Source: Phycisphaerae bacterium (GTDB lineage Bacteria > Planctomycetota > Phycisphaerae > UBA1845 > Fen-1342). From it: a DNA stretch of 64,000 nt. Under the pieces are notes generated by a model. The model ran no database searches, was not told the DNA's origin, and worked only from the letters and a program-made list of their open reading frames with translations. Location: contig JASFQK010000023.1 of assembly GCA_050115495.1 (NCBI GenBank), forward strand, positions 1 through 64,000, read 5' to 3'. The position numbers and the translations under genes are program-made. Shown here piece after piece: positions 784 through 6,967 of the stretch; positions within the stretch are counted from its first letter, which is position 1; each line of letters opens with the position of its first letter.

Positions 784-2691
784 TCACTCCTTCTTCTGCG
801 CGTAGCCCATTTCGCGCAGGGCGCCGGTGATTTCGTCCAGGATCGTCGGGTCGTCGATCGTCGCCGGGACCTGGTACTCCGAGCCGTCGGCGATGCGCTT
901 CATCGTGCCGCGCAGGACCTTGCCGCTGCGCGTCTTCGGCAAGCGCTTCACGACCGTCACCAGCTTGAACGCCGCCACCGGACCGATGCGCTCGCGCACC
1001 ATCTGCACCAGTTCGCGGGCGATGTCTTCCTGCGGCGTTTCGATCCCCGCCTTCAGCACGACGAAGCCGAACGGCAACTCGCCCTTGAGCTGGTCGGCGA
1101 CGCCGATGACGGCGCATTCGGCGACCGCCGGATGGGAGGCCAGTACCTCTTCCATCCCGCCGGTGGAGAGGCGGTGGCCGGCGACGTTAATGATGTCGTC
1201 GGTGCGGGCCATGATGTAGATGTAGCCGTCCTCGTCGAACATGCCGGCGTCGCCGGTGAGGTAGTAACCGGAGTAGGCGGACAGATACGAGTCGATGTAG
1301 CCCTGGTCGTTGTTCCAGAGCGTCGGCAGACAGCCGGGCGGCAGGGGCAGCTTGACGACGATGCTGCCGATCTTGCCGACCGGAACGGGGTGGCCGCCCT
1401 CATCGAGAATGCGGATGTCGTAGCCCGGCGACGGCCGCGTCGGCGAGCCCGCCTTCACCGGCAGCGGGCACAGACCCATGCAGTTGGCGGCGATGCCCCA
1501 GGCCGTTTCCGTCTGCCACCAGTGATCGATGACCGGAACGCCCAGGTGCTGCTCGGCCCAGTGCAGCGTGTCGGGATCGCACCGCTCGCCGGCGAGGAAC
1601 AGGGCGCGGAAGTCGCCGAGGTTGTACTTCTTCAGGAATTCGCAGTTGGGGTCTTCGCGCTTGATGGCGCGGAAGGCGGTCGGGGCGGTGAAGAGCACGT
1701 TGACGTTATGCTCGGAGATGACCCGCCAGAAGGCGCCGGGGTCGGGCGTGCCGACGGGCTTGCCCTCGTACAGGATCGTAGTGCAGCCCTTGAGCAGGGG
1801 GGCGTAGAGGATGTACGAGTGGCCGACGACCCAGCCGATGTCGGAGGCGGCCCAGTAGACGTCGCCGGGCTCGACGTTGTAGATGGCCTTCATGGTCCAC
1901 TTCATGGCGACCGCATGGCCGCCGTTGTCGCGGACGACGCCCTTCGGCACGCCGGTGGTGCCGGAGGTGTAGAGGATGTAGAGCGGGTCGGTGGCCTGGA
2001 GCGGGACGCAGTCGACCGGCTGCGCGTCGGCCATCAGCTCGGTCCAGTCGAGATCGCGGCCGGCCTGCATGTCGGCGGTGAGCTGCGGGCGCTGGTAGAC
2101 GATGCAATGCTCCGGCTTGGGCGAGGACATGTGGATGGCCTCGTCGAGCAGGGGCTTGTACGGGATCGTCTTCTTGCCCTCGATGCCGCAGGAAGCGGAG
2201 ACGATCAGCTTCGGCCGGGCGTCGACGATGCGCTTGGCCAGCTCCTTGGCGGCGAAACCGCCGAAGACGACGGAGTGGATGGCGCCGATGCGGGCGCAGG
2301 CGAAGACGGCGACGACAGCCTCGGGGATCATCGGCATGTAAATGAGGACGCGGTCGCCCTTGGTGATGCCCTGGGCGGTGAGGACGCCGGCGAAGCGGGC
2401 GACGAGGTCGCGCAGCTCGCGGTAGGTGAACTTGCGGGTCGTGCCGGTGACGGGGCTGTCGTAGATGAGGGCCAACTGGTCGGCCCGGCCGTTCTCGACG
2501 TGATAGTCGAGGGCGTTGTAGCACGTATTGAGCTCGCCGCCGGCGAACCAGCGGTAGAACGGCTTGCGGCTGTCATCGAGGACGCGGTCCCACTTCTTGA
2601 ACCAGTGTATGTCCTCGGCGGCCTGGCCCCAGAACTGGTCGGGGGCTTCGATGGACTGCCGATAGAGTGCGTCGAACTCCGCCTTCTCCAT
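784..2691 (-). CDS. prpE: Propionyl-CoA synthetase (acetate/propionate-CoA ligase family)
   Basis: 635 aa. AMP-binding loop YILYTSGTTGVPKG, DHWWQTET, RTDDIINVAGHRLS and LPKTRSGK with the acetylation-site Lys. GCAGGAG RBS. Confidence 0.9.
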   Translation of the reverse strand: MEKAEFDALYRQSIEAPDQFWGQAAEDIHWFKKWDRVLDDSRKPFYRWFAGGELNTCYNALDYHVENGRADQLALIYDSPVTGTTRKFTYRELRDLVARFAGVLTAQGITKGDRVLIYMPMIPEAVVAVFACARIGAIHSVVFGGFAAKELAKRIVDARPKLIVSASCGIEGKKTIPYKPLLDEAIHMSSPKPEHCIVYQRPQLTADMQAGRDLDWTELMADAQPVDCVPLQATDPLYILYTSGTTGVPKGVVRDNGGHAVAMKWTMKAIYNVEPGDVYWAASDIGWVVGHSYILYAPLLKGCTTILYEGKPVGTPDPGAFWRVISEHNVNVLFTAPTAFRAIKREDPNCEFLKKYNLGDFRALFLAGERCDPDTLHWAEQHLGVPVIDHWWQTETAWGIAANCMGLCPLPVKAGSPTRPSPGYDIRILDEGGHPVPVGKIGSIVVKLPLPPGCLPTLWNNDQGYIDSYLSAYSGYYLTGDAGMFDEDGYIYIMARTDDIINVAGHRLSTGGMEEVLASHPAVAECAVIGVADQLKGELPFGFVVLKAGIETPQEDIARELVQMVRERIGPVAAFKLVTVVKRLPKTRSGKVLRGTMKRIADGSEYQVPATIDDPTILDEITGALREMGYAQKKE

Positions 2692-2880
2692 TCGGTATCT
2701 CCTGCTTTCCTGGACGGTGAACCCGTGGCCGACATCGAAATCGGCTAAACGTGATCAGGTTTCGGGTACGCCGATCGGGGCCGGAATGGCCCGCAGAAAC
2801 GTAACAGGGGGAGCATATGCGGAGTCGGCCGCCGGTGCAACGCAGGGCGTGTCGCCGGCGGCCGACGTGTTGAGGGCACG

Positions 2881-3923
2881 AAAAAAGCGACGTGAGGTTT
2901 GGAGCTCGCCGCGCCCTTCAGAGTATTCGGTTCCGCTGCTTGGCACCCGCCGTCACCGGCCGACGCCATCCTCTCGGAGTTGGCTGCCCGTTCAGAGTTT
3001 CACCTGCCGAAGTAGCGCCCGTATCGGTTAGACGCTCCCGCTATGCCGTTGGCCGTTTCCTCGGCTTTGCGGTTTTCCCTCGGGCAGGCCCGGAGGACAC
3101 AGTTAAGCGCCCACGCGAACCTCTCTTCGGGTTTCGCTCTCCGCCAGAGTATTACCCAGCGGACCCTAGTCGCCCGGCCGAAGCCGGCCGACTCCTCTCA
3201 TGGGCTTCCACATCCCTTCAGCACGCTCAGACTCGGAGGTCCACTTACCACGGGCTTGCCTCACCCGCTACGTTCCGCCCTCAGGGTTTGGTCACCCTCT
3301 CGGCGGCTTACTCCCTCCGAGCCCCAGCCGGTTTTCTTTCGCACCGGCGGCGCTCATGGGATTCACCCTTCGGAGCTTTCCCCTCTCACAAGGTATCCAC
3401 GCGTCTCCGCGAGGAAGGACCCACTTACCGTTTCTCCTGCCGTTTCTACCGGTGCCGAAGCACCGAGCCGGCCCGGCAGGCCGCGGTTTCTGGGCTTTGA
3501 CCCTTGCGAGAGTCCCTGGCGACCGGAGCGGGATTAGCGCTCCGACCACTGGCTGCTCCCATGGGTTTCACCCTTCCAGGGTTTTCCACCGGAAGCCTTG
3601 GCCAAGCTTTCGCCCGGCCTCCTCTCACGCGCTTGCCGAACCCGCCCGAAGACGGGCCCGCGGCGCCCCAGAGTCTCGATCAGCCTCCGGCTGGTCCCAC
3701 CCGCCATAACGGCAAGCCGCTACGGACGGCCAAGACAGCCCTCATAGGGTTTCCGCACCTGCTAAATCCCAAACATTCGGGGGCGCGCTCTCCGGGTTAT
3801 GTATTCACCTCAGACCGCGTCGTACATTGCTGCCGACCGACCAGCCTTCCTTGGAGAGCCCCGCTTCCCTGCCGGAGCTGCTGGGACTCGCTTCGGTGCC
3901 GAGCCCGCGACCTCATCGTCACA
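2881..3923 (-). ncRNA. Candidate large (~1,040 nt) structured non-coding RNA, family not identified
   Basis: Upstream sigma70 promoter. 5' GUGACG-A-UGAGGU (3922-3910) pairs with 3' ACCUCA-CGUCGC (2898-2887), followed by U6 (2886-2881). C(UUCG)G hairpins at 3656-3641, 3465-3450 and 3187-3174. About 10 copies of an AA(A)CYCY-Nx-RAGRG motif. No credible CDS. Confidence 0.8.
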
Positions 3924-3929
3924 AGAGTA

Positions 3930-3958
3930 AGGTTAGCACACGTTTAGCGTAAGGTCAA
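3930..3958 (-). promoter_or_regulatory. Sigma70-type promoter of the large ncRNA candidate
   Basis: Minus strand TTGACC (3958-3953), 17-nt spacer, TAACCT (3935-3930) with extended TG. The predicted start near 3923 coincides with the 5' strand of the terminal helix. Confidence 0.8.
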
Positions 3959-4138
3959 AAACGAGTTCGGGTATTGACAGTGTGTGAAATGCGCAGCGCG
4001 CAAGGCCACACTCGTAACTGACGGAAGCACCATGAGTAGGCGTCGATATATCGGACGGTTAAATCTATCGAAAAGACTTTCGCTGACATGTTATCCACAT
4101 GCTGTCCACTGATTGTGTTTTTGTGAAGATGCGGCGGG

Positions 4139-5443: not shown

Positions 5444-5842
5444 GTCGCCGCCAGTGTAGCACGTGGTGGCACCGACGCCAGAGGCGATGGCGGCAGGCGC
5501 TCGGCGTCGGTGTGGGCGCTCGGCGGAGCACGCGTTGCCAATAGTCGTCGCCCTGCTGGCCGACGCCGCAAACAGTGATGCGCTGCAGCCAAGACCTCTC
5601 GTACAGCGAACGCAGGGATTGTGTAAGCCCGGATCCCGTGAGGAGTTCTCGGATCCGGCAGCAGTGAGCCATAAGCGCATTCACAGTAATTGTTTACGCC
5701 TGGCGCCTGGGATCAGTTGAGAAACATGGGTCGTATTTCGGTTATGTCTCAGACATGGTAGCGATACTGCGCCGCTCTGTTACAATGAGGCCAGCCTTTG
5801 GTTGTTGCACTTGTCCAGGATTTCATGAAGGAGGAAGCATCC

Positions 5843-6967
5843 ATGTTGAGACTATGCAGCAGGCTGGGATTGGGGCTCACGTTGATTGGGTGTGCTGGTA
5901 CGTTACCCGCCTTGGGCCAACCGCATGAACCGGCACACGTACAGGAGGGGCTTGGCGTAACACTGCCTCAGACCGCCCTTCTGCGAACCGGCTATGAGAT
6001 CATCCTGATTGACCCGCCGGAGGCGCCACCCACGTCGACCACGCAAGCCTGTGCTGTTAACAACGTCGGTGAGGTGCTCGGGAACTACTCGAGGCCCGGC
6101 TTCATCTTCTATACGGGGGCGATCTGGCGGGACGGCGAACTGACGACGGTAGACAGCTCTGCCAGTCAGCAACACGACATCAACGAGGCTGGACACGCCG
6201 TGGCGACCCGGAGTGCCCTCTGGTCGTACGAGGCGATCATGTGGCGCGACGGCGAGGAAATCGACCTTGGCATTCCGTCGTACAGCTTTGCGTACGGCAT
6301 CAATGACTGCGATCAGGTTGTGGGCGATTACGAAGACGCGTTCGGCGACAGACGGGCCTTTTTCTGGGATGACTTCGTATTGACGGGCCTTCCCAGACTG
6401 AACGGTCCGGAGAGCACGGCGATTGCGATCAACAATGCGCAGCAGATTGCCGGTTACGCTGACTACGTGAACCCCGAGCACCCGGAGGCCGCAGTGTCCT
6501 GCGCGGTGCGCTGGGAGCACGTCGATGGGGAGTGGGTGATATCGCCGATCGCGCCGCTCGGTACATACAGTTTTGCGATGGATATCAACGAAGCGGGTGA
6601 TGTGGTCGGTGCGATTCGCAATGGCTCGGCCAACCGCCAGCCGGCGTTGTTTACTGAAGAGGGTGTGACAATCCTGAACGAAGAGACTGCCTGGGGCATC
6701 GCGCGAGGTATGAACAATGCGGGCGATGTAGTGGGTTCGTATGAGTCTGTCGGTTCTGGGGACGACAGCGCGTTTCTTTGGAAGGACGGTGTTTTCACCG
6801 ACCTCAACGATCTGCTTCGGCCGTCGGCGCAAGCGGATTGGGATCTCTGGTGTGCTTCTGACATCAACGACCAAGGGTGGATAGTCGGCATTGGCGACTA
6901 TCAGGGAGAGATGCGTGGGTTTGTTCTGTGTCCGGTGGTCGTTCGTGATGCCAAGCGTCTTCGTTGA
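5843..6967 (+). CDS. Secreted HAF-repeat (DUF3466-like) protein
   Basis: AAGGAGG RBS then ATG at 5843. Signal-peptide-like N-terminus. Repeated A-x-x-INxxG-x-VVG and AFLW-x-DG units ending in DLNDLL...ASDINDQGWIVG. Confidence 0.85.
   Translation: MLRLCSRLGLGLTLIGCAGTLPALGQPHEPAHVQEGLGVTLPQTALLRTGYEIILIDPPEAPPTSTTQACAVNNVGEVLGNYSRPGFIFYTGAIWRDGELTTVDSSASQQHDINEAGHAVATRSALWSYEAIMWRDGEEIDLGIPSYSFAYGINDCDQVVGDYEDAFGDRRAFFWDDFVLTGLPRLNGPESTAIAINNAQQIAGYADYVNPEHPEAAVSCAVRWEHVDGEWVISPIAPLGTYSFAMDINEAGDVVGAIRNGSANRQPALFTEEGVTILNEETAWGIARGMNNAGDVVGSYESVGSGDDSAFLWKDGVFTDLNDLLRPSAQADWDLWCASDINDQGWIVGIGDYQGEMRGFVLCPVVVRDAKRLR

What the first reader, a model, noticed from the sequence alone, without database searches (positions are those of the whole stretch)
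2912..3757. The RNA candidate is built from about 10 copies of a recurring AA(A)CYCY..RAGGG..AAACCC..GAG module
Seen on the minus strand: AAACCCUAUGAGGGC (~3753-3739), AAAACCCUGGAAGGGUGAAACCCAUGGGAGC (3585-3555), GACUCUCGCAAGGGUCAAAGCCCAGAAACC (~3514-3485), AAAGCUCCGAAGGGUGAAUCCCAUGAGCG (~3379-3351), AAGCCGCCGAGAGGGUGACCAAACCCUGAGGGCGG (3309-3275), GCUGAAGGGAUGUGGAAGCCCAUGAGAGG (~3222-3194), AAUACUCUGGCGGAGAGCGAAACCCGAAGAGAGG (3153-3120), AAACUCUGAACGGGCAGCCAACUCCGAGAGGA (3000-2969), AAUACUCUGAAGGGCG (2927-2912). Inference: each forms a GGG/CCC stem with a GA-rich internal loop (kink-turn-like, or an alternative pseudoknot). Repetition at irregular spacing suggests a multivalent protein-binding scaffold or sponge, or repeated tertiary contacts for oligomerisation.
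Basis: partly seen in the sequence, partly recalled or inferred. Interest (0 to 1): 0.8.

Follow-up and report, generated by a model that had tools for sequence, protein, structure and literature searches.

The report
Kilobase RNA built from repeated loops
The repeats are building blocks of a very abundant, roughly 1,000-letter non-coding RNA found in several bacterial phyla; they pair with each other into about ten copies of one unusual symmetric purine loop, probably docking sites in a large RNA-protein particle whose helicase-nuclease partner gene often sits next door.

Summary
Window 3922-2887 (minus strand) is a stand-alone 1,036-nt non-coding RNA gene with a conserved promoter, paired ends and no Rfam match. 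Strain-identical RNA contigs cover it hundreds of times deeper than its neighbours. Relatives occur in Planctomycetota, Myxococcales, Gemmatimonadota and others. They give nine 4-bp/3x3-loop/4-bp modules plus one 3x1 variant. The outer loop pairs are A.A or G.G in 1,148 of 1,170 cells and switch together on the tree. They are not kink-turns, and no pseudoknot was found. A PIN-PhoH (PhoH2) gene lies upstream in 32 of 65 loci, and linked copies group across phyla, but some RNA-bearing lineages lack it. Best reading (0.45): a multivalent protein scaffold with PhoH2 as optional remodeller. Main rival (0.3): an RNA-only assembly. An October 2026 preprint flags PhoH2-adjacent RNAs in general; this architecture is not in the text I read. 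No earlier scan note on this RNA was found.

The parts
2887..3922 (-). Non-coding RNA gene, 1,036 nt (RNA position p = window 3923-p); central junction with five arms; 5' and 3' ends pair
   Evidence: RNA contigs identical to the window span 2892-3911; 98 of 1,415 indels are multiples of 3
3930..3958 (-). Sigma-70-type promoter: TTGACC (3958-3953), 17 nt, TGTG-C-TAACCT (3940-3930)
   Evidence: sequence; loose -10 and -35 patterns at this place in 58 and 61 of 65 homologues, no shuffle control; below the threshold of the promoter scan (0 found)
3975..3987 (.). Conserved inverted repeat TGACA-N3-TGTCA-like upstream of the promoter, possible regulator site
   Evidence: matched with up to 2 mismatches in 51 of 65 upstream regions (loose pattern, no control)
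2880..2886 (-). T-run after the closing helix (3' end)
   Evidence: 5 or more T in the next 12 nt in 63 of 65 homologues; not reported by the terminator scan
3571..3749 (-). Module 1: half-sites 3749-3739 and 3581-3571; loop AUG/GGA
   Evidence: pairs 178:348 (AA 47, GG 14 of 65) and 180:346 (GG 37, AA 27)
3622..3673 (-).
   Evidence: GG 62 and GG 65 of 65; closing pair 253:298 covaries
3365..3566 (-). Module 3: half-sites 3566-3556 and 3375-3365; loop AUG/GAA
   Evidence: AA 65, GG 65 of 65; 357:558 covaries
3420..3494 (-). Module 4: half-sites 3494-3484 and 3430-3420; loop GAA/AAG
   Evidence: GG 65, AA 65 of 65; 432:500 and 436:496 covary
3213..3361 (-). Module 5: half-sites 3361-3351 and 3223-3213; closes the most conserved domain
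   Evidence: AA 64, GG 64 of 65; AA 32, GG 31 of 32 divergent sequences
3276..3305 (-). Module 6: half-sites 3305-3295 and 3286-3276; the one local (hairpin) copy
   Evidence: 622:643 AA 34, GG 28 of 65; 14 changes shared on the tree
2913..3205 (-). Module 7: half-sites 3205-3195 and 2923-2913
   Evidence: AA 64, GG 64 of 65; 719:1009 and 725:1003 covary
2971..3149 (-). Module 8, 3x1 variant: 3149-3136 with 2984-2971
   Evidence: 778:948 GG 36, AA 21 of 65
2987..3131 (-). Module 9: half-sites 3131-3121 and 2997-2987
   Evidence: 796:932 AA 56, GG 4; 798:930 GG 63 of 65
3038..3072 (-).
   Evidence: 855:881 AA 58, GG 5; 857:879 AA 48, GG 16 of 65
3327..3348 (-). Hairpin with YGAAA loop closed by a G.A/A.G covarying pair; T-loop-like (label recalled)
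   Evidence: 581:590 GA 39, AG 24 of 65; loop replaced in several divergent members
3168..3193 (-). Variable hairpin; site of 0.5-2.2 kb hairpin-rich expansions in relatives
   Evidence: L232, L276, L241, L298
4139..5443 (-). phoH2: PIN-PhoH ATPase gene, candidate partner, same strand, about 220 nt upstream of the RNA
   Evidence: Pfam PIN_4 100.6 bits and PhoH 165.5 bits; linkage
784..2691 (-). Acyl-CoA synthetase (acs/prpE type); downstream neighbour, not conserved, not part of the system
   Evidence: downstream genes differ among homologues

Best explanation
A stable, very abundant, independently transcribed large RNA that works as a multivalent scaffold. SHOWN here: gene boundaries, non-coding status, nested secondary structure, and about ten copies of one module. 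Both strands of a module follow the same plan (A-rich flank, C-rich 4 nt, purine-N-purine, G-rich 4 nt), so it is pseudo-two-fold symmetric; the outer purines pair like with like and the middle bases are free. INFERRED: the pairs are trans Watson-Crick A.A/G.G, each forcing a sharp backbone turn with the middle base flipped out and the major groove widened, a doubled version of the geometry in the HIV Rev-binding loop. INFERRED: each module is a docking site for the same, probably dimeric, protein, so one RNA gathers many copies into a particle (storage, sequestration or scaffold). INFERRED: PhoH2, an ATP-driven RNA helicase with a PIN nuclease, is the protein itself or more likely an optional enzyme that loads, remodels or turns over the particle. 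My confidence that it is a real structured ncRNA with this module is about 0.95; the figure below is for the protein-scaffold mechanism.
For: AA or GG in 1,148 of 1,170 cells, AG/GA in 4; 714 of 734 ungapped cells in 46 further sequences; 125 of 128 in 32 divergent sequences. Partners change on the same branches, e.g. 14 shared of 16 and 14 changes, against a null shared fraction of 0.19. Alignment-free: 162 of 274 predicted 3x3 loops in 40 divergent RNAs are double-homopurine against 22 of 160 in shuffles. 101 of 198 module bases are at least 97% conserved against 83 of 838 elsewhere. bioRxiv 10.1101/098723 (passages and section 3.9): A:A and G:G trans W:W are isosteric, make sharp turns, generally do not covary, but may where a peptide touches only the backbone, as in the Rev site. 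PMC4488727 (passages): Rev assembles on several purine-rich loops. No kissing-loop or pseudoknot signal. PhoH2 upstream in 32 of 65 and 4 of 18 loci; 33 linked proteins sit on one side of a branch (SH-aLRT 95) against 36 unlinked (quick tree); in the order 37 genomes have both, 16 neither, 5 RNA only, 3 PhoH2 only.
Against: No binding protein is shown. About half of the homopurine positions are nearly fixed (e.g. GG 65 of 65), so some are read base by base, which RNA contacts could equally do. Conserved AA flanks next to stacked C-G pairs are the usual parts of A-minor RNA-RNA contacts (recalled). The six residues specific to the linked PhoH2 group are hydrophobic or aromatic, with no basic patch. 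14 of 22 RNA-bearing genomes in the wider phylum sample have no PhoH2 at E<=1e-60; 5 of 5 checked have only shorter, weak PhoH-type matches. 78 of 112 RNA-negative genomes in the phylum of G361 have PhoH2. Trans W:H geometry would also allow AA/GG exchange (recalled).
Confidence: 0.45

Rival explanations
1. RNA-only architecture. The modules are repeated bends or receptors; the AA linkers between arms dock into neighbouring modules, folding a compact particle or a GOLLD/ROOL-like multimer. Because any half-site can pair with any other, strands could also swap between molecules and build oligomers or a condensate.
For: AA flanks are conserved 5' of most module strands. A model of one domain also hits the adjacent domain (E 2.5e-6), as expected for repeated structural units. 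No obligate partner gene. PMC12286853 (passages): large ornate RNAs form protein-free cages through A-minor contacts.
Against: No covarying kissing loops or pseudoknots, which help hold GOLLD, ROOL and OLE together. Free AA/GG exchange at several sites argues against base-edge tertiary reading there. Size varies from shorter-looking forms to more than 3 kb, awkward for a closed cage.
Confidence: 0.3
2. Dedicated PhoH2 regulator: the RNA is a decoy or antitoxin that holds PhoH2 rings (or their PIN domains) inactive until stress, in the manner of an RNA antitoxin.
For: Cross-phylum linkage and a shared protein clade (21-protein group with support 98). In Gemmatimonadota the only genome of 101 with PhoH2 is the one with the RNA beside it (it was the centre of the search). 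All 29 RNA-bearing genomes in the phylum of G361 have PhoH2. PMC7390352 (passages) describes PhoH2 as a hexameric helicase-RNase of toxin-antitoxin type.
Against: RNA without PhoH2 in 5 of 42 genomes of the order and 14 of 22 in the wider phylum; PhoH2 without RNA is common; 0 of 36 unlinked PhoH2 loci have the RNA. Modules are nested, not a tandem array that could be cut into units.
Confidence: 0.13
3. A catalytic or selfish RNA (unknown ribozyme, circular replicon-like or intron-derived element) with chromosomal copies; phoH2 linkage is inherited gene order.
For: 2 of 79 metagenome contigs join the 3' end to the 5' end; up to six matches in one genome; patchy distribution.
Against: No Rfam ribozyme or intron match; no transposase or reverse transcriptase among 124 flanking ORFs scanned; own promoter and T-run; single copy in most genomes; one join rests on a 2-nt overlap typical of template switching.
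Confidence: 0.1

Closest known systems
PhoH2-associated candidate ncRNAs (bioRxiv 10.64898/2026.10.21.760802, COMPASS; cluster #1,412,455 and 27 further clusters)
   Same: Multistem RNA without family annotation next to a PIN-PhoH gene, lineage-specific, transcribed; 13 clusters lie 3' of phoH2 as this RNA does.
   Different: Their lead candidate is a 357-nt motif enriched in Bacteroidota. The main text holds no 'Planctomyc', 'Phycisph' or 'internal loop'. I could not see the figures or supplements, so this family may be among the 13 unlabelled clusters.
GOLLD and ROOL RNAs (PMC12286853, PMC5737381; passages)
   Same: Very large, ornate, abundant bacterial ncRNAs of unknown function with variable inserts.
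   Different: They lie in phages or prophages near tRNAs and use pseudoknots and kissing loops. This RNA is chromosomal, has no tRNA in the window, no phage or plasmid match, no Rfam match, and is built from a repeated loop.
OLE RNA (abstract start; passages)
   Same: Chromosomal, highly expressed large RNA with a protein partner.
   Different: No Rfam match; different phyla; the linked gene here is a helicase-nuclease, not a membrane protein; repeated symmetric module.
HIV-1 Rev response element, stem IIB loop (PMC4488727; bioRxiv 10.1101/098723)
   Same: Purine-bulge-purine strand, G.G exchangeable for A.A, several purine-rich loops on one RNA binding many copies of a protein. A working analogy only.
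   Different: No homology. The Rev site has one bulged strand and a G.A pair; here both strands are purine-N-purine and both pairs are homopurine, repeated ten times.
Kink-turn
   Same: Purine-rich internal loop between a C-G-rich stem and a second stem.
   Different: Symmetric 3x3 loop with like-with-like pairs; no 3-nt bulge plus tandem G.A.

Membership tests
Kink-turn | 3-nt bulge on one strand followed by tandem G.A/A.G pairs (rule recalled) | tested here: not met
   0 of 65 at six modules, 4, 5 and 6 of 65 at three; AG/GA in 4 of 1,170 cells
GOLLD / ROOL / OLE and all other Rfam 15 families | Match to the family covariance model | tested here: not met
   0 at gathering score; best E 1.1 in the region; no hit of a large-RNA family in 20 and 16 homologous loci
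GOLLD / ROOL | Phage or prophage location, often near tRNAs | tested here: not met
   0 tRNA in the window; no phage or plasmid match; 1 true member in two IMG/VR pattern scans
GOLLD / ROOL | Covarying pseudoknots and kissing loops | tested here: not met
   none among loop bases in 111 sequences
GOLLD / ROOL | Protein-free multimeric cage | not testable with these tools
   needs mass photometry or cryo-EM
PhoH2-associated ncRNAs (COMPASS) | Structured unannotated RNA adjacent to a PIN-PhoH gene of one lineage | tested here: met
PhoH2-associated ncRNAs (COMPASS) | Identity with cluster #1,412,455 or one of the 27 other clusters | not testable with these tools
   figures, sequences and supplements not visible
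RNase P RNA | Replaces the genome's RNase P RNA | tested here: not met
   a normal type A gene lies on C15, 283.7 bits
Group I/II intron or mobile element | Intron model match, host gene interruption, RT or transposase | tested here: not met
   only a 12-bit partial group II match; intergenic with own promoter; no such enzyme among flanking ORFs
Type III toxin-antitoxin RNA | Tandem array of short repeats upstream of an obligate nuclease gene (recalled) | tested here: not met
   modules are nested and downstream of phoH2; RNA occurs without PhoH2
MISL RNA (name and Verrucomicrobia range recalled) | Sequence or structure match; presence in Verrucomicrobia | tested here: inconclusive
   no paper found; recalled accession was another family; 1 strong match in 150 genomes of the phylum of G362
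Trans W:W purine pair / sharp-turn motif | A.A and G.G exchange without A.G, next to a canonical pair | tested here: met
   the 3D geometry itself is not testable here

The most novel reading that the evidence does not exclude
A new class of giant bacterial RNA (1 to over 3 kb) grown by duplication of a domain around a previously undescribed symmetric double-homopurine loop. It is the core of an unknown, very abundant ribonucleoprotein particle in several phyla, and PhoH2, a widespread helicase-nuclease of unclear role, is the ATP-driven machine that builds or recycles it; part of the RNA may be circular.
Probability: 0.35. Interest if true: 0.95.

Novelty: new variant of a known kind. Interest (0 to 1): 0.86.

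Why it matters
Few bacterial non-coding RNAs exceed 1 kb, and those known are mostly ribozymes or have surprising structures. This one appears to be among the most heavily transcribed RNAs of its hosts in wetland and sediment communities, spans several phyla and tolerates multi-kilobase expansions. It repeats one small motif ten times, so a 30-nt model duplex can be solved and tested directly. It gives a concrete natural RNA for PhoH2, whose biological role is poorly characterised (PMC7390352, abstract), and may add a new motif to RNA structural biology.

Tried and rejected
Protein coding: ORFs over the region are not conserved in frame; 98 of 1,415 indels are multiples of 3. Plus strand: G-U 2,126 against A-C 415 at paired columns, and folding energy -510 against -422 kcal/mol, favour the minus strand. 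Cis-regulatory leader of the synthetase: downstream genes vary. Local hairpins, kink-turn, pseudoknot: see above. Repeat finder gave no result. Promoter and terminator scan found neither signal on the minus strand. Pattern hits L031, L033, L064 are chance; G204 is weak and unsupported. RNA-binding signature in the linked PhoH2 group: none. RNA beside PhoH2 in eight further loci of the order, three of them cut short by contig ends: none. No RNA contigs over most of phoH2 in four runs is not evidence of silence. Literature: searches found no description of this family; one search was for the Rev analogy; most subscription papers are not held, a review on large bacterial ncRNAs was not available and the supplement of PMC5737381 could not be read. 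Earlier scan notes: four about synthetase-like genes, none about this RNA. The tree is the quick tree; the careful one did not finish. Covariation scores are my own APC-corrected G-test, not R-scape.

Full report
WHAT IS THERE. The finding lies in a 1.45-kb gap between a PIN-PhoH gene (5443-4139, minus) and an acyl-CoA synthetase gene (2691-784, minus). The gap holds one element conserved end to end in relatives while its flanks are not: 44 of 61 genomes of the order match by BLAST, full-length ones at 67-78% identity; a covariance model of its core finds 42 of 61. Alignment fixes the element at 3922-2887, 1,036 nt, with a sigma-70-type promoter just upstream, a 5' end that pairs with the 3' end, and a T-run after it. 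The built-in scan did not call the promoter or a minus-strand terminator. It is non-coding (98 of 1,415 indels in frame), folds better than shuffles (z -5.5, 25 block shuffles) and matches nothing in Rfam 15. The genome has one copy and a normal RNase P RNA elsewhere.

EXPRESSION. All 24 runs listed were RNA runs, 6 holding half the words or more. In four runs laid, contigs with 0-1 differences cover the RNA at depth 550-1,425 (X2), 618-1,854 (X3), about 1,100-3,200 (X7) and 17-18 (X1); bins in the flanking genes have summed depth 0-7. Contigs of two studies stop at 3911 and 3910. These are contigs, so level, strand and ends are only hinted. Separately, 58 of 79 metagenome-collection contigs with the core motif begin 560-720 nt before it and end 340-480 nt after it, at the RNA's own limits; the shortest contig returned was 1,004 nt, so a length cut-off may shape this.

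THE OBSERVATION. The quoted strings exist and are enriched: 7 against 0.49 and 5 against 0.22 in 2,000 shuffles, none as high, and none of 11,532 genome windows (patterns chosen after the fact).

WHAT THE MODULE IS. From 87 full-length homologues, 65 remained below 95% identity. The consensus fold has 332 pairs, 94 with APC-G above 30, and 83 of the 100 strongest signals; on 42 cross-phylum core sequences 89% of cells pair, 0 of 500 shuffles as high, slid controls 37-48%. They pair, mostly 150-290 nt apart, into nine elements of 4 bp, a 3x3 loop and 4 bp, plus a 3x1 variant. The GGG-loop-CCC that looks like a hairpin is usually the end of one arm, an A-rich linker and the start of the next; those local registers show no covariation. 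In each loop the outer bases pair like with like: AA or GG in 1,148 of 1,170 cells, AG or GA in 4. The middle bases vary freely. Changes fall on the same branches (14 shared of 16 and 14; 12 of 12 and 13; 12 of 13 and 12; null shared fraction 0.19). The rule holds in 125 of 128 cells of 32 divergent sequences, in 714 of 734 cells of 46 metagenome sequences, and without alignment (162 of 274 loops against 22 of 160). It is not a kink-turn (at most 6 of 65), and no pseudoknot appears. Half of the module bases are at least 97% conserved against a tenth elsewhere. A model of the third large domain also hits the second (E 2.5e-6), suggesting growth by domain duplication.

RANGE. A pattern scan of GTDB gave 86 hits, 84 confirmed by profile; record titles name mostly Phycisphaerae and other Planctomycetota, also Myxococcales, Gemmatimonadota, Latescibacterota, Verrucomicrobiota and Bdellovibrionota, with module order kept. 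Model tallies: 24 of 150 in the own phylum, one weak; 29 of 141 in the phylum of a Myxococcales genome, up to six matches per genome; one strong match, the centre itself, in 101 and in 150 genomes around the Gemmatimonadota and Verrucomicrobiota carriers. No plasmid or phage match. Some relatives carry 0.5-2.2 kb hairpin-rich inserts at one variable hairpin.

PARTNER. phoH2 lies upstream on the same strand in 32 of 65 non-redundant loci (4 too short to tell) and 4 of 18 divergent ones, including Gemmatimonadota and Latescibacterota. The 33 linked proteins fall on one side of a branch against 36 unlinked ones from the own phylum (SH-aLRT 95, quick tree; a 21-protein group with support 98). In the order, 37 genomes have both, 16 neither, 5 only the RNA, 3 only PhoH2 (my tally; kin are not independent). 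Against an obligate link: 14 of 22 wider-phylum carriers lack PhoH2 at E<=1e-60, their RNAs sit beside typA/bipA or PTS EIIA genes, and 78 of 112 non-carriers in the phylum of G361 have PhoH2.

HOW IT MOST LIKELY WORKS. Exchange between A.A and G.G without A.G is the signature of isosteric trans purine pairs. bioRxiv 10.1101/098723 (passages, section 3.9) reports that trans W:W A:A and G:G make sharp backbone turns, bind ions and proteins, generally do not covary, and may do so where only the backbone is contacted, as in the Rev site; PMC4488727 (passages) describes Rev assembling on several such loops. I infer a doubled, symmetric sharp-turn with a widened groove, repeated ten times as a docking site, and PhoH2 as an optional remodeller (0.45). 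The RNA-only rival (0.3) rests on the conserved AA flanks and the precedent of protein-free cages (PMC12286853, passages); the PhoH2-inhibitor (0.13) and selfish or catalytic readings (0.1) fit less well. No binding, activity or 3D structure was shown here.

NOVELTY. Nine literature searches found no description of this family. One preprint of October 2026 (10.64898/2026.10.21.760802; abstract, sections 2.5, 3, 4.39 and part of the supplementary legends read) nominates long RNAs beside PhoH2 genes, led by a 357-nt Bacteroidota motif, with 13 clusters 3' of the gene. Its figures and supplements were not visible and may include this family; the size, range and module described here are not in the text read. 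Verdict: a real large ncRNA family with an apparently undescribed repeated motif; new variant of a known kind; interest 0.86.

Noticed in passing
L253 (about 560-590), L256 (about 165-185): 2 of 79 metagenome contigs have 123-nt terminal repeats and join the RNA's 3' end to its 5' end: circular form or template-switch artefact (one join has a 2-nt overlap, the other 8 nt between).
   Followed up: partly
L232 706-2212, L276 728-2926, L241, L298, L225: Expansions of 0.5-2.2 kb rich in small UUCG-type hairpins at the variable hairpin after the core (far end of the RNA not seen in L225); no convincing gene by eye, no Rfam hit.
   Followed up: partly
L277 1-2123: Two different family members head to tail in one 2.1-kb contig.
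   Followed up: no
window 3922-3907: The 5' end can form a conserved local hairpin (positions 1-5 with 12-16) as an alternative to pairing with the 3' end; possible folding switch, and the T-run follows a long-range rather than local stem.
   Followed up: no
window 4099-4091 and upstream regions of L072, L074, L076: DnaA-box-like 9-mers (consensus recalled) upstream of the promoter; the TGACA-N3-TGTCA repeat resembles an inverted pair of them.
   Followed up: no
phoH2, residue 364 (window about 4354): The RNA-linked PhoH2 group has Leu where 42 of 43 comparison proteins have His.
   Followed up: no
L118, L121-L124, L073: In other Planctomycetota a PTS EIIA gene, often with a MoxR ATPase gene, follows the RNA; in L130-L133 typA/bipA precedes it and, in L130, L131 and L133, a kynureninase-type gene follows.
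   Followed up: partly
L119 and L131, just after the RNA's T-run: A second short conserved non-coding stretch shared by both loci.
   Followed up: no
L100 (whole 1,037-nt contig): A scaffold filed under Stutzerimonas marianensis is almost exactly one Phycisphaerae-type copy of this RNA; likely contamination of that assembly.
   Followed up: no
G374, G398, G495, G136, G208: Several large genomes carry 2-6 divergent matches; L213 looks like a 5'-shortened form with its own start.
   Followed up: partly
window 5798-6967 (+): Probable secreted repeat protein with a DUF3466 match, divergent from phoH2.
   Followed up: no
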